Counted from the first letter of the stretch, positions 4,343 to 7,208 are shown. The stretch is 41,245 bases of DNA from a virus (UHGV-0086138), one strand, 5' to 3'. Notes: generated by a model from the sequence alone, not told the origin. Numbers and translations are program-made.

Positions 4343-4359
4343 ATTACCCAACAGGTAAA
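4343..4359. promoter_or_regulatory. operator O1 ATTACCCAACAGGTAAA (repressor/cro intergenic)
   Basis: first of three tandem palindromes between divergent repressor and cro genes. Confidence 0.65.
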
Positions 4360-4377: not shown

Positions 4378-4390
4378 ATCCTTGATTTTT

Positions 4391-4407
4391 GTTACCTTAT
4401 GGGTGAA
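4391..4407. promoter_or_regulatory. operator O3 GTTACCTTATGGGTGAA within spacer of cro promoter
   Basis: follows TTGATT -35 (4382-4387). Confidence 0.55.
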
Positions 4408-4430
4408 TATTTATTATCTGAAATAAATAT
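4407..4430. promoter_or_regulatory. AT-rich inverted repeat ATATTTATT-N6-AATAAATAT in cro leader
   Basis: 9-bp arms, between cro promoter and RBS. Confidence 0.4.
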
Positions 4431-4442
4431 CAGGCAATAGCT

Positions 4443-4673
4443 ATGAGCGATAACGGACATTTCGATTTCAAAAAGCACTGGCTTGCACTTACTCCGGATG
4501 AGCGTGAAGCCTTCGCACAGGAAGCCGGAACGACGAGTCACTATATCCAGACTCACTTAACAGGTAAGCGCAAAATGCCAGGTAAAGTATTGATGAATGG
4601 GCTTTTTAAAGCCTGTAAAACAAGACAATGGCTGCGCTTAAAAGCAGAACTGGCATACTTCTTCTACTCATGA
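4443..4673 (+). CDS. Cro-like HTH regulator
   Basis: 76 aa; HTH segment; divergent from repressor; followed by intrinsic terminator. Confidence 0.65.
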   Translation: MSDNGHFDFKKHWLALTPDEREAFAQEAGTTSHYIQTHLTGKRKMPGKVLMNGLFKACKTRQWLRLKAELAYFFYS

Positions 4674-4695
4674 TATCCAGCTACAACCCTCTGTA

Positions 4696-4718
4696 GACCG
4701 CCACCCGGCGGTCTTTTC
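4696..4718 (+). terminator. rho-independent terminator after cro
   Basis: hairpin GACCGCC-ACCC-GGCGGTC then TTTTC. Confidence 0.65.
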
Positions 4719-4727
4719 ATATCTATT

Positions 4728-4744
4728 CGTACCTCAAAGGTAAT
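4728..4744. promoter_or_regulatory. operator-like palindrome CGTACCTCAAAGGTAAT
   Basis: located after cro terminator and before TTGATC promoter-like hexamer. Confidence 0.55.
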
Positions 4745-4823
4745 AAAAAACCAAATCTGGTTGATCTTTTTTTTGTGTCAGCACAAAATGACCGTAATCC
4801 CAATACTAATAACAGGGCTTACC

Positions 4824-5039: not shown

Positions 5040-5903
5040 ATGAGCAGACATGCAACAGATTGGGCCTGGGAGACAGATCCAGGTAGCTCATCATTAAAGC
5101 TCATACTGCTCTCGATGGCTGACAGAGCCGATGAATATAACCTCTGCTACCCCAGCATAGAACGCCTCGTTAAAGACACTTGCCTGAATAAAAAAACCGT
5201 GCAGGCCGGGCTTATATCGCTCATGAAAATGGGGCTTATTTCAGATACCGGAGAGAGAAAGGGAGCGACAAAAAGAGTGCGGGTTTTCTCTCTTAATATA
5301 ACCAAAAACGGGAACATTAAAGGCAACCGAGAGGGGGGCAATGAACCCGAAAACGGTAATGTTACCGAAAACGGGAATATACCCAAAAACGGGATGTTGA
5401 ATGATCCCAAAAACGGGATGTTGAATGATCCCAAAAACGGGATGTTGAATGATCCCAAAAACGGGATGTTGAATGATCCCAAAAACGGGATCCAGAACCA
5501 GTCATATAACCAGTCATTTAACCAAGAGAGGGAGAGCAGGACAAAAAACGGGGATTCTGTGCATCATGACCCCGGCGCAAACAACGCCGTGATGAATAAC
5601 TTTGTTCCTCCTGGTGGGCCAGGGCAATTAGGCAAATTTGTCATGCATGAACAATGGCAGCCATCAGATGACTTTCTTCGGAAAAGCTCATTGCAGGGGA
5701 TCTACCTGGACAGTCTGCCAACGGCACAGGAACTTGCAGAGTTCAGAATTTACTGGATGGCTGAGGGTAAGGCATACCATCAGGCACAGTGGGAGCAGAA
5801 GCTGGCAAGGCGGCTGCAGATTAGCAGACAGAAGCAATCAACATTACCTGATAACAACGTTCCGCACTGGAACAGCCCTGAAGCATGGGAGGATTTCTTG
5901 TGA
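5040..5903 (+). CDS. replication initiator (lambda O-like role) with N-terminal HTH and internal iteron array
   Basis: 287 aa; N-terminal HTH-type domain; 4 perfect 24-bp direct repeats inside gene (encode PKNGMLND x4); followed by P-like gene. Confidence 0.75.
   Translation: MSRHATDWAWETDPGSSSLKLILLSMADRADEYNLCYPSIERLVKDTCLNKKTVQAGLISLMKMGLISDTGERKGATKRVRVFSLNITKNGNIKGNREGGNEPENGNVTENGNIPKNGMLNDPKNGMLNDPKNGMLNDPKNGMLNDPKNGIQNQSYNQSFNQERESRTKNGDSVHHDPGANNAVMNNFVPPGGPGQLGKFVMHEQWQPSDDFLRKSSLQGIYLDSLPTAQELAEFRIYWMAEGKAYHQAQWEQKLARRLQISRQKQSTLPDNNVPHWNSPEAWEDFL
5347..5491 (+). repeat. iteron-like direct repeats inside replication initiator gene (4 perfect 24-bp units CCCAAAAACGGGATGTTGAATGAT at 5382-5477, flanked by degenerate copies)
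   Basis: perfect tandem units read directly; analogous to ori iterons inside lambda O. Confidence 0.7.
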
Positions 5904-6685
5904 ACAACGTTTTTACCGCGATACAAAACCGTGACGGAGAAGCCCTTTCTCGCATGTCAGGTTATGAGCATCAGTACACCAACAATGACAACGTGGTGAA
6001 CATGTCAGCAGAGAGGCTTGTTGATGCCCTTTTCAAACAGCTGAAACAACTGTTTCCGGCGGCAGTGGTAACCAACCTGAAGACGCCAGAGCAGGAAGTC
6101 GCTGCAAAACAGCAGTGGATTGCTGCGTTTGCCGAAGGTGGGATCCGAACCCGTGAACAGGTTTCTGCTGGTATGCGCCACGCCCGCGCCAGTGAATCTC
6201 CGTTCTGGCCGTCGCCAGGGCAATTCATCAAGTGGTGCAAAGACAGCAAGATGGTTCTTGGCGTCACCATTGACGATGTGATGGCGGAGTTTCACCGGTA
6301 CAGCAAGGAAAAAAGTTTATATCCTGGTAGTCCCGAAAGATTCCCGTGGCGACATCCGGTTATGTACTGGGTCGTATGTGATACCCGCCGTGCAATGTAT
6401 CAGCGCCAGCTTAGCGAGATTGAGGTTGAGAAACATGCGCGCAGGCTGCTCGATGATTGGGCGAAAAAGGTGGCTTCTGGACAGCAGATACCCGATCCGG
6501 TGATCAGCATACAGGCAAAGCCAGAGCCCATGAGTACACCTCCGGACACAGGGAGAGACGTTTACCATCCACCAGGGCGAAGTTTCGGATGCATGCCTAA
6601 CGCCGCCACCCTTGGGGGAATAACACCGGCGCAGTGGCTGATGGAGGAATACAGGCGAGGAAAGGCGGCAGGATTTATCAAGTAA
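5900..6685 (+). CDS. replication protein P-like helicase loader
   Basis: Recalled similarity to lambda P (segment ...GMRHARASESPFWPSPGQFIKWCK vs lambda ...GMRVARRQNRPFLPSPGQFVAWCR); start assigned to GTG 5900 after GGAGG RBS, overlapping O stop (GTGA). Confidence 0.8.
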   Translation: MNNVFTAIQNRDGEALSRMSGYEHQYTNNDNVVNMSAERLVDALFKQLKQLFPAAVVTNLKTPEQEVAAKQQWIAAFAEGGIRTREQVSAGMRHARASESPFWPSPGQFIKWCKDSKMVLGVTIDDVMAEFHRYSKEKSLYPGSPERFPWRHPVMYWVVCDTRRAMYQRQLSEIEVEKHARRLLDDWAKKVASGQQIPDPVISIQAKPEPMSTPPDTGRDVYHPPGRSFGCMPNAATLGGITPAQWLMEEYRRGKAAGFIK

Positions 6686-6690
6686 TACCA

Positions 6691-6710
6691 GCGCGATAGC
6701 GCATTTTTTT
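6691..6710 (+). terminator. weak intrinsic terminator after P-like gene
   Basis: short GC stem (GCGC-GATA-GCGC) followed by T7 run. Confidence 0.4.
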
Positions 6711-6721
6711 ACGCTCAAATA

Positions 6722-6738
6722 ATTACCCATCAGGTAAT
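6722..6738. promoter_or_regulatory. operator-like palindrome ATTACCCATCAGGTAAT
   Basis: after P-gene terminator. Confidence 0.6.
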
Positions 6739-6783
6739 AAAATATTCTAAACTCTATTGATTTCGTGTCTTATGTGGTTTTTA

Positions 6784-6800
6784 ATTACCTCAGAGGTAAA
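6784..6800. promoter_or_regulatory. operator-like palindrome ATTACCTCAGAGGTAAA overlapping RBS of 6803 gene
   Basis: follows TTGATT-17-TTTAAT promoter-like element; AGGT of right half doubles as Shine-Dalgarno. Confidence 0.6.
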
Positions 6801-7147: not shown

Positions 7148-7208
7148 ATCGACGATCTTTTTAGTTATCAATGTTATCAATAAGTTATGTGGATAAGCGA
7201 GGGTAAAG

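What the first reader, a model, noticed from the sequence alone, without database searches (positions are those of the whole stretch)
5347..5491. Origin-like iteron array embedded in the replication initiator gene
Four perfect 24-bp direct repeats (CCCAAAAACGGGATGTTGAATGAT, 5382-5477) preceded by degenerate copies (CCGAAAACGGTAATGTT, ACCGAAAACGGGAATAT) lie inside the O-like gene, encoding PKNGMLND x4. This parallels lambda, where ori iterons lie within O and are bound by the O N-terminal domain. The perfect conservation of the four units suggests recent expansion or strong selection at the DNA level.
Basis: partly seen in the sequence, partly recalled or inferred. Interest (0 to 1): 0.5.

Follow-up and report, generated by a model that had tools for sequence, protein, structure and literature searches.

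The report
Phage replication origin inside initiator gene
The perfect 24-bp repeats are almost certainly the initiator-binding sites (iterons) of this phiV10-like E. coli prophage's replication origin, placed inside the initiator gene as in phage lambda: a correct call, but an ordinary member of a well-known kind of origin.

Summary
Bases 5382-5477 hold four perfect 24-bp units, followed by a partial fifth unit. Two degenerate 18-bp units lie upstream, and outlying core sites lie at 5301 and 5541. All sit in the linker-coding middle of a 287-aa initiator gene (5040-5903), which is followed by a lambda-P-like helicase-loader gene.

The origin reading is well supported by comparison, but no experiment backs it.
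- Each unit is a 16-bp dyad (ATCCC-AAAAAC-GGGAT) plus an 8-bp spacer, resembling lambda's iterons.
- I grouped relatives into 32 diverged N-domain clusters. In 23 of them the core CCNRAAAACGG occurs only at gene nt 259-465 and only on the + strand. It appears in all three reading frames (PKNG, TQKRD, VPKTE).
- Other clusters carry variant palindromes at the same place, with compensatory half-site changes.
- A conserved junction and 12-mer repeats follow the last iteron.
- Protein similarity to the Vibrio and Edwardsiella homologues stops exactly there.

The protein is not a Pfam lambda-O member: it is HTH_36 plus a DnaT-like C-terminal domain. The perfect identity reflects copy-number turnover, with 1-7 units among near-identical E. 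coli prophages and two as the mode.

Verdict: a new member of a known kind, of low to moderate interest.

The parts
5040..5903 (+). Replication initiator gene (287 aa). It has an N-terminal winged-helix domain (aa 1-86, nt 5040-5297), an N/G/P-rich linker that is the iteron-coding region (aa ~87-195), and a DnaT-like C-terminal domain (aa 196-281, nt 5625-5882).
   Evidence: Pfam HTH_36 aa 18-67 (E 2e-10) and DnaT domain aa 200-268 (E 1.3e-15). phrog_1032 'replication initiation protein' (E 2e-117). PDB DnaT chains 9zbt, 6aep and 4ou6 match aa 196-281 at E about 1e-20. Hydrophobic fraction is 0.18 in the linker against 0.35 and 0.32 in the two domains.
5301..5312 (+). Distal core site ACCAAAAACGGG, the first and promoter-proximal iteron-like site.
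   Evidence: family D2. Homologues carry a site at the same gene position (nt 259-292), usually in reading frame +1.
5346..5381 (+). Two degenerate 18-bp units, CCCGAAAACGGTAATGTT and ACCGAAAACGGGAATATA. Their copy number varies from 1 to 4 in relatives.
5382..5477 (+). Four perfect 24-bp units. Each is a 16-bp dyad iteron (ATCCC-AAAAAC-GGGAT, spanning the unit junctions) plus the 8-bp spacer GTTGAATG. Relatives carry 1-7 copies.
   Evidence: TRF 100% match. Copy-number variation. The TTGAATG spacer and the dyad are conserved in distant homologues.
5475..5492 (+). Terminal iteron GATCCCAAAAACGGGATC (6-bp arms), the partial fifth unit. It abuts the conserved junction.
   Evidence: Dyad covariation of terminal iterons across 22 clusters.
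5493..5531 (+). Conserved junction CAGAACC plus 12-mer repeats (AACCAGTCATAT, AACCAGTCATTT, AACCAAGAGAGG). This is the candidate unwinding element or a second binding region.
   Evidence: TRF. The same C(A/G)GAAYC-NNTCA-N2 x2-3 element follows the last iteron in about 25 of 32 diverged clusters. Copy number is 2-3 in close relatives.
5524..5554 (+). Purine-rich tract AAGAGAGGGAGAGCAGGACAAAAAACGGGGA, which includes the last core site ACAAAAAACGGG (5541-5552).
   Evidence: AT skew is +0.37 to +0.74 over 5300-5600. The last core site is lost (AAGCGG) in some relatives.
5900..6685 (+). Lambda-P-like helicase-loader gene. Its GTG start overlaps the initiator's stop codon.
   Evidence: Pfam Phage_lambda_P (E 6e-57). 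phrog_109 'P-like helicase loader'. The start is as annotated in phiV10 and RefSeq relatives.
4389..4714 (+). Context: a pR-like promoter match (4389-4417), a cro-like ORF (4443-4673) and a terminator-like hairpin (4695-4714) upstream of the replication genes. The array lies about 0.9-1.1 kb downstream of this promoter match.
   Evidence: consensus matches only.. The phiV10 record annotates a terminator at the equivalent place.

Best explanation
The array is the iteron block of the prophage's origin of replication.

Shown:
- The window carries a run of nine sites with core CCNRAAAACGG(G). Five of them are 16-bp dyads (ATCCC-AAAAAC-GGGAT) spaced exactly 24 bp apart.
- The sites lie in the linker-coding segment of an initiator that has an HTH_36 winged-helix N-domain and a DnaT-like C-domain.
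- A lambda-P-like helicase-loader gene is translationally coupled to it.
- The DNA motif, its symmetry, its orientation and its position are conserved family-wide, regardless of reading frame.

Inferred:
1. Dimers of the N-domain bind each dyad and form an O-some-like nucleoprotein complex.
2. This complex stresses the adjacent conserved 12-mer and purine-rich segment (5493-5554) so that it opens.
3. The DnaT-like C-domain engages single-stranded DNA and/or the P-like loader.
4. The loader delivers host DnaB.

The perfect identity of the four units comes from ongoing slippage or unequal recombination. Because the unit is 24 bp (8 codons), copy number can drift between 1 and 7 without breaking the gene. 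Each change alters the number of binding sites and the initiator's linker length together.
For: 1. Anatomy. TRF finds a perfect 24-bp x4.6 array, and the core is 6 observed against 0.19 expected in the window. The domains are HTH_36 plus DnaT with a lambda-P-like neighbour.

2. Lambda comparison. Lambda's annotated iterons lie at O-gene nt 349-433, spaced 20-24 bp, with sequence ATCCCTCAAAACGAGGGA(T). They share the ATCCC/GGGAT arms and the AAAAC centre.

3. Family survey. Among 32 N-domain clusters from IMG/VR and GenBank phages there are 72 core hits in 23 clusters. All lie at gene nt 259-465, all on the + strand, and none elsewhere in the roughly 2.6-kb loci. The frames are 53/16/3, read as PKNG, (T/S)QKR(D/N) and VPKTE. 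Bcep176 has repeat periods of 17 and 22, which are not multiples of 3.

4. Variant dyads. Clusters without that core carry variant palindromes at the same place: GTCCCAACGTTGGGAC, GTACCAATATTGGTAC, AGCCCATATATGGGCT, GTCCCAAATTTGGGAC and ATCCCAAAATTGGGAT. For terminal iterons, 81% of half-site positions are complementary against 71% in shuffles (0/500). There are 20 two-sided changes against 8.6 (0/500). The covariation score is 0.31, against 0.04 or less for slid registers, and only one G-T pair occurs.

5. Independent arrays. Vibrio phage H20 (51% N-domain identity) has its own perfect 24-bp x4.6 array with the same core, followed by AGAACCAGTCATT x2.5. Edwardsiella GF-2 has 24 bp x2.8.

6. 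Module boundary. BLASTP similarity to the H20 and GF-2 proteins ends exactly after the iteron/12-mer block. GF-2's C-terminal part is lambda-O-like. The N-domain and iterons therefore move as one module.

7. Copy-number polymorphism. Close E. coli relatives carry 1-4 units. In 80 IMG/VR loci the gene is 792-888 bp with a mode of 816, which corresponds to two units. A 7-unit allele exists, P0037.

8. Precedent. Lambda has 4 iterons and Stx phages have 6, in mid-O, with the extra iterons required for replication (PMC7466680). In-gene repeats have been inferred as the origin in phage L and P22 gene 18 (PMC8022706).
Against: - There is no experimental evidence for binding or initiation here or in any member of this HTH_36 initiator family that I could find.
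- The window has no clearly AT-rich unwinding element next to the iterons. GC is 0.42-0.47 over 5450-5570, against 0.28-0.37 in the flanking intergenic regions. In the window the downstream element is inferred only from conservation and strand skew.
- The window's own iterons are only 5/7 symmetric, and all nine sites are in frame 0. Within this genome alone, a protein-level repeat cannot be excluded.
- For some loci the terminal iteron used was picked as the most palindromic candidate, which is a mild selection bias.
- The N-domain shows no significant direct similarity to lambda O (hhalign probability 2.4%, BLASTP E 0.08).
Confidence: 0.8

Rival explanations
1. The repeats are only a slippage-prone, low-complexity protein linker (PKNGMLND)n between two folded domains, with no function at the DNA level.
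For: The linker is N/G/P-rich with a low hydrophobic fraction (0.18). All length variants are in frame and tolerated. All nine core sites in the window are in frame 0.
Against: The same DNA motif is kept in three different reading frames in homologues, and Bcep176 has periods of 17 and 22. The dyad symmetry shows compensatory half-site changes. The motif is strictly strand- and position-specific and absent from the flanks. It also resembles lambda's proven iterons.
Confidence: 0.07
2. The array is an initiator-binding site cluster used for control rather than as the initiation site. Possible roles are autoregulation, titration or handcuffing, or exclusion of related superinfecting phages. The true unwinding site would lie elsewhere, for example in the AT-rich intergenic regions at 4730-4790 or 6710-6800.
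For: The local sequence is not AT-rich, whereas the flanking intergenic regions have GC 0.28-0.30. Cloned lambda iterons are known to inhibit lambda-type replication of incoming phages (PMC3349717 abstract). Variable copy number would suit a titration role.
Against: The conserved junction and 12-mer repeats, followed in many relatives by an A-rich run (AGAATCTAAAAATAAAAAA), sit immediately after the last iteron. This is the oriλ layout. A control role and an origin role are not mutually exclusive in iteron replicons.
Confidence: 0.08
3. The conserved DNA block is mainly a recombination boundary. It would be a short stretch kept similar between phages so that homologous recombination can swap N-terminal and C-terminal initiator modules.
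For: Protein similarity to the H20 and GF-2 homologues ends exactly at the block. GF-2 joins the same N-domain and iterons to a lambda-O-type C-terminus.
Against: This does not explain the internal dyad symmetry, the covariation, the multiplicity or the 24-bp phasing. It is more likely a consequence of a conserved origin than its purpose.
Confidence: 0.03
4. The units act as nucleic-acid hairpins. They would be either antisense intrinsic terminators (minus strand: a hairpin followed by TTTTT) or ssDNA/mRNA stem-loops.
For: The terminator scan flags one site per unit on the minus strand. The plus-strand RNA fold has z = -3.3.
Against: The stems are only 5-6 bp. The minus-strand DNA fold is not unusual (z = -1.6, with 12 of 200 shuffles as good). 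The hairpin-plus-T-run is an automatic by-product of a dyad with an A5 centre. G-T pairs are essentially absent from the covariation (1 cell), which fits a duplex protein site rather than an RNA helix.
Confidence: 0.02

Closest known systems
Phage lambda ori (four iterons plus an AT-rich region inside gene O) with O and P
   Same: The iterons lie in the middle of the initiator gene, in the segment coding the inter-domain linker (lambda gene nt 349-433, here nt 262-513). The spacing is 20-24 bp. Each iteron is a dyad with ATCCC/GGGAT arms and an A-tract/AAAAC centre. A GGGA(C/T)-C(A)-purine-rich segment lies on the downstream side. The next gene is a P-type helicase loader. A pR-like promoter lies about 1 kb upstream.
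   Different: The iteron is 16 bp rather than 18-19 bp, so the half-sites are 3 bp closer. There are nine sites rather than four, and the units are perfectly identical. There is no strongly AT-rich tract. The N-domain is Pfam HTH_36, not Phage_rep_O, and is linked to lambda O only through shared PHROG profiles (phrog_678, phrog_345). The C-domain is DnaT-like rather than lambda-O-C-like.
Stx phage origins (933W, P27) with six iterons
   Same: This is natural variation in iteron number within one origin type. The extra iterons are bound and are needed for efficient replication (PMC7466680).
   Different: Those phages have true lambda O proteins. The variation there is 4 versus 6 fixed, non-identical iterons. 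It is not a 1-7 polymorphism of perfect units among near-identical prophages.
Phage L and P22 gene 18 internal repeats (inferred origins)
   Same: The inference has the same logic: short repeats inside the initiator gene of a lambdoid phage are taken as its iterons (PMC8022706).
   Different: The repeat sequences differ (TGTCCAACGGA in phage L). Phage L was not among the tblastn relatives of this initiator family. The partner gene there is a DnaB-type helicase (gp12) rather than a P-type loader.
Iteron plasmids (RK2, pPS10, R6K, P1) with Rep initiators
   Same: Direct repeats bound by a winged-helix initiator lie next to an unwinding element made of short repeated 12-13-mers. Iteron number is linked to control.
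   Different: Plasmid iterons are intergenic, and their Rep proteins belong to other families; no plasmid Rep family reached E <= 0.01 in the Pfam scan. Here the sites are coding and are read through by the ribosome.
E. coli primosomal protein DnaT (C-terminal ssDNA-binding domain)
   Same: The initiator's aa 196-281 match DnaT residues about 85-170 at E about 1e-20 (Pfam PF17948).
   Different: DnaT works in PriA-dependent replication restart and has no sequence-specific N-terminal wHTH and no iterons. Here the domain is fused to an origin-binding module.

Membership tests
Lambdoid in-gene iteron origin (oriλ-type architecture) | Several direct repeats of about 16-20 bp, each with internal dyad symmetry, spaced about 20-24 bp apart | tested here: met
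   There are five 16-bp dyads at an exact 24-bp spacing, plus four further core sites. Lambda reference.
Lambdoid in-gene iteron origin (oriλ-type architecture) | The repeats lie inside the initiator gene, between the regions coding the DNA-binding N-domain and the C-domain | tested here: met
   The sites are at gene nt 262-513. HTH_36 covers aa 18-67 and the DnaT domain covers aa 200-268.
Lambdoid in-gene iteron origin (oriλ-type architecture) | An AT-rich unwinding region immediately on the promoter-distal side of the iterons | tested here: inconclusive
   In the window, GC is 0.42-0.47 and only strand skew is evident. However, a family-conserved 12-mer repeat sits at that spot, and many relatives add an A-rich run.
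Lambdoid in-gene iteron origin (oriλ-type architecture) | The initiator gene is followed by its helicase loader or helicase partner gene in the early-right operon | tested here: met
   Phage_lambda_P at E 6e-57, with start and stop codons overlapping.
Lambdoid in-gene iteron origin (oriλ-type architecture) | The initiator binds the repeats, and the segment is required in cis for replication | not testable with these tools
   There is only indirect support: frame-independent conservation, half-site covariation and co-inheritance with the N-domain.
Lambda O protein family (Pfam PF04492 Phage_rep_O) | The N-terminal domain matches the Phage_rep_O profile | tested here: not met
   There is no PF04492 hit at E <= 0.01, whereas lambda O scores 5.7e-36. 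hhalign gives probability 2.4%. The only link is the shared PHROG profiles phrog_678 and phrog_345.
HTH_36-type phage replication initiators (Pfam PF13730; phrog_1032) | An N-terminal HTH_36 winged-helix domain and a full-length match to the PHROG family | tested here: met
   HTH_36 at E 2e-10, above the cut-off. phrog_1032 at E 2e-117 over aa 1-285.
DnaT C-terminal domain (Pfam PF17948) | A match to the DnaT ssDNA-binding three-helix domain | tested here: met
   PF17948 at E 1.3e-15. PDB DnaT chains at E 8e-21. ssDNA binding itself was not tested.
Iteron-plasmid Rep initiators | A match to plasmid Rep families, with iterons that are intergenic | tested here: not met
   No plasmid Rep family reached E <= 0.01 in the Pfam scan. 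The sites are coding.

The most novel reading that the evidence does not exclude
The N-domain, iteron and 12-mer block is an ancient, portable 'origin cassette'. Its DNA grammar is an ATCCC...GGGAT dyad followed by a GGGAC-AC(A/G)GAA junction, and this grammar is shared even with lambda although the proteins are no longer alignable. The cassette is spliced onto different C-terminal or loader modules. Its homogenised units, variable from 1 to 7 copies, would act as a heritable rheostat. Each change would alter origin strength or incompatibility and the initiator's linker length at the same time. The conserved 12-mers would be a sequence-specific unwinding or ssDNA-binding element rather than a merely AT-rich one.
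Probability: 0.25. Interest if true: 0.5.

Novelty: new member of a known kind. Interest (0 to 1): 0.3.

Why it matters
- It places the probable replication origin of phiV10/epsilon15-like (Uetakevirus-type) E. coli prophages. These are present in about 8% of complete E. coli genomes (424 of 5426). GenBank and RefSeq annotate the gene only as 'primosomal/DnaT-like protein'.
- It gives a clean natural series of 1 to 7 identical iterons for testing how iteron number affects initiation, copy control and exclusion of related phages.
- It illustrates a DNA binding site maintained inside a coding region through changes of reading frame.
- Practically, the array breaks short-read assemblies and produces truncated gene calls.
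- It does not change the understanding of phage replication.

Tried and rejected
- The search for related loci with the 7-sequence N-domain alignment failed because no stretch was conserved enough. I re-ran it with 4-5 sequences and different first rows.
- A protein search with the N-domain alone returned mostly truncated contig-end fragments and was not useful for diversity. The full-length search listed only near-identical E. coli proteins, but it did reveal 3-, 4- and 7-unit alleles.
- Direct similarity to lambda O was not significant by BLASTP or hhalign.
- DnaA boxes: none lies near the array, and the nearest perfect box is at 7188. DnaA-box-dependent initiation was therefore not pursued.
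- GATC/SeqA idea: the cluster of 5 GATC is real, but GATC is absent from the Vibrio H20 unit. It is a lineage feature, not a defining one.
- Minus-strand terminator-like hits and strand folding were judged to be by-products of the dyad plus the A-tract.
- The search for TTACC-N6-GGTAA operators with 1 mismatch did not recover the sites seen by the repeat finder, because their spacer length differs.
- Literature searches for a described origin in phiV10, epsilon15 or Uetakevirus found nothing.
- Structure prediction was not run. Only near-identical sequences were eligible for the alignment, and a generic winged-helix match would not discriminate between the hypotheses.

Full report
**1. The observation**

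- Reading the sequence and running Tandem Repeats Finder confirm a perfect 24-bp repeat at 5382-5491. It has 4.6 copies, 100% matches and unit CCCAAAAACGGGATGTTGAATGAT.
- Two degenerate 18-bp units precede it, at 5346-5363 and 5364-5381.
- The array is in frame within ORF 5040-5903 (+) and encodes PKNGMLND x4.
- The core CCNRAAAACGG occurs 6 times in the 41-kb window, all in this array, against 0.19 expected.
- The feature extends beyond the reported coordinates. Looser core sites lie at 5301-5312 and 5541-5552, giving nine in all. A second tandem repeat, AACCAGTCATAT x2.4, follows at 5496-5524.
- Each 24-bp unit resolves into a 16-bp dyad, ATCCC-AAAAAC-GGGAT, plus the 8-bp spacer GTTGAATG. 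The terminal copy has 6-bp arms (GATCCCAAAAACGGGATC, 5475-5492). This is read directly from the sequence.
- Every unit junction carries a GATC, giving five in 90 bp.

**2. The gene and its context**

- The 287-aa product has an HTH_36 winged-helix domain (aa 18-67) and a DnaT C-terminal domain (aa 200-268).
- It is a full-length member of phrog_1032, 'replication initiation protein'.
- Residues 196-281 match solved E. coli DnaT structures at E about 1e-20.
- The next gene (5900-6685), whose start overlaps the initiator's stop codon, is a lambda-P-type helicase loader (Pfam E 6e-57).
- Upstream lie a repressor-like gene, a cro-like ORF, a promoter-like match and a terminator-like hairpin.
- The window is a phiV10/epsilon15-like prophage. 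The initiator gene is 94.7% identical to that of phage phiV10. Relatives occur in 424 of 5426 complete E. coli genomes, where the gene is annotated only as a 'DnaT-like ssDNA-binding domain-containing protein'.
- The segment between the two domains (aa ~87-195) is 23% Asn and 15% Gly and has a low hydrophobic content. It looks like a linker.

**3. Close relatives: copy-number turnover**

- In eight GenBank and RefSeq relatives, the length differences of the gene all trace to repeat-unit changes in the array: 24-mer x1-4, 18-mer x1-3 and 12-mer x2-3. Scattered point substitutions also occur.
- In 80 near-identical IMG/VR loci the gene is 792-888 bp, with a mode of 816 bp, which corresponds to two full 24-mers. 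Three units is uncommon, none of the 80 has four, and one has five.
- The large protein collection holds many 279-aa (3-unit) and 287-aa (4-unit) alleles and one 311-aa allele with seven units.
- The four perfect copies in the window are therefore a minority, expanded state of a polymorphic array.
- Perfect identity is best explained by recent slippage or unequal exchange (concerted evolution), not by unusually strong purifying selection on every base.

**4. Distant relatives: the motif is a DNA feature**

- tblastn found N-domain homologues in Vibrio, Edwardsiella, Acinetobacter, Burkholderia and other phages.
- Vibrio phage H20 (51% N-domain identity) has its own perfect 24-bp x4.6 array, CCGAAAACGGTACTTTGAATAGGC, followed by AGAACCAGTCATT x2.5.
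- Edwardsiella GF-2 has AATGATCCCAAAATTGGGATTTTG x2.8.
- Burkholderia Bcep176 has repeats with periods 17 and 22, which cannot be protein repeats.
- I collected 254 loci (and earlier fetches) and reduced them to 32 N-domain clusters. The core [ACT]CN[AG]AAAACGG occurs 72 times in 23 clusters. Every hit is at gene nt 259-465 and on the + strand, and none lies elsewhere in the roughly 2.6-kb loci, where about one hit would be expected by chance.
- Nineteen of the 72 hits are out of frame. The same DNA is read as PKNG, (T/S)QKR(D/N) or VPKTE.
- The nine clusters without that core carry other 16-bp palindromes at the same place: GTCCCAACGTTGGGAC, GTACCAATATTGGTAC and AGCCCATATATGGGCT. Related palindromes occur in clusters that also have the core: GTCCCAAATTTGGGAC, ATCCCAAAATTGGGAT and AACCCAAATTTGGGTC.
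- I treated the two half-sites of the terminal iteron as 'pairs' in 22 clusters. Complementarity is 81% against 71% in shuffles (0/500). Two-sided changes number 20 against 8.6 (0/500). The covariation score is 0.31, against 0.04 or less in slid registers, and there is only one G-T.
- One caveat applies to that test. In a few loci the most palindromic candidate was chosen as the terminal iteron.
- This is the signature of a duplex site bound by a symmetric dimer.

**5. Conserved neighbours and module boundary**

- The last iteron is followed in most clusters by AC(A/G)GAAYC-NNTCA-N2, repeated two to three times with a 12-bp period. In many clusters an A-rich run comes next.
- The window has the same junction: CAGAACCAGTCATAT AACCAGTCATTT AACCAAG, then a purine-rich tract.
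- The inter-iteron spacer TTGAATG is also widely conserved.
- BLASTP similarity between the window protein and the H20 and GF-2 homologues stops exactly at the end of this block.
- GF-2's C-terminal half is lambda-O-like (phrog_277, E 2e-63). The N-domain and its iterons therefore behave as one exchangeable module, as in the classical description of lambdoid O genes.

**6. Comparison with lambda**

- Lambda's annotated iterons (ATCCCTCAAAACGAGGGA and variants) lie at O-gene nt 349-433, spaced 20-24 bp. They are followed by GGGACACAAAAGACAC and an A-rich tract.
- The window's iterons share the arms, the AAAAC centre, the position in the gene, the orientation and the P-type neighbour.
- The half-sites here are 3 bp closer, and there is no strongly AT-rich tract (GC 0.42-0.47).
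- Protein similarity to lambda O is not significant directly, and Pfam places the two in different families.
- Two PHROG profiles, phrog_678 and phrog_345, match the N-terminal regions of both proteins. This hints at remote common ancestry, although part of those matches may come from the iteron-encoded segment.

**7. Mechanism**

*Shown:* the anatomy, the conservation and the covariation described above.

*Inferred from the lambda paradigm (PMC7466680) and from DnaT biology:*
1. Dimers of the N-domain occupy the dyads and form an O-some-like complex.
2. The adjacent 12-mer and purine-rich segment opens.
3. The DnaT-like domain contacts ssDNA and/or the P-like loader.
4. The loader brings in host DnaB.

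- Transcription from the upstream early promoter may help, as it does in lambda.
- No DnaA box lies nearby.
- I give this explanation about 0.8. The rivals are a pure protein linker, a control-only binding array, a recombination boundary, and hairpins or antisense terminators. Each explains less of the evidence.

**8. Novelty**

- Iterons inside the initiator gene are textbook for lambda and Stx phages. They are routinely inferred in genome papers, for example for phage L and P22 gene 18 (PMC8022706).
- I found no paper that describes the origin of phiV10, epsilon15 or Uetakevirus, or of this HTH_36/DnaT-type initiator. No characterised phage appeared among its relatives.
- The finding is a new member of a known kind.
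- The modestly interesting extras are the 1-7 copy polymorphism, the frame-independent conservation with half-site covariation, the conserved 12-mer element and the lambda-like iteron grammar.

Noticed in passing
window 36555-36648 (within minus-strand ORF 36485-37423): A perfect 8-bp x11.8 tandem repeat, CTGTGCTG, lies in the 3' end of a 312-aa ORF whose C-terminus reads TAAQQHSS x4. The ORF sits just downstream of the tailspike-like gene. My guess, which no search here supports, is that it is the phiV10-type O-antigen acetyltransferase. The period is not a multiple of 3, so gaining or losing one unit shifts the reading frame. This makes it a candidate slipped-strand phase-variation switch.
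   Followed up: partly
window 4343-4358, 4730-4756, 6722-6737, 6772-6799: Related palindromes of the type ATTACC-N4-6-GGTAA(T) occur between the repressor-like and cro-like genes. They recur on both sides of the O/P-like replication module, including a 27-nt inverted repeat at 4730-4756 / 6772-6798. They may be operators or promoter-associated sites bracketing the module (D5/I1; not recovered by the fixed-spacer search).
   Followed up: partly
window 5040-5400 and protein collection: Many database 'proteins' of 97-158 aa are N-terminal fragments of this initiator that end in or near the repeat region. Short-read assemblies evidently break at the array, so copy numbers taken from such assemblies are unreliable.
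   Followed up: no
window 5625-6500; phrog_15931: One PHROG family of 482-residue profile length, with unknown function, matches both the DnaT-like C-domain of the initiator (profile 200-268) and the P-like loader (profile 353-451). This suggests that fused initiator-C-domain/loader proteins exist, which is consistent with a physical partnership between the two.
   Followed up: no
L003 (NZ_CP076267.1, E. coli NADC1036): The only fetched relative with the same 4-unit array is deposited as a 38.7-kb circular 'plasmid', pNADC1036guaAphage. This is apparently the excised, circular form of the same kind of prophage.
   Followed up: no
L002 (PP488543.1, Escherichia phage BP9, 138 kb, Vequintavirus): A 99%-identical copy of this temperate-phage immunity and replication region sits near the end of a record for a lytic rV5-like phage. 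It may be an assembly chimera or prophage contamination in that record.
   Followed up: no
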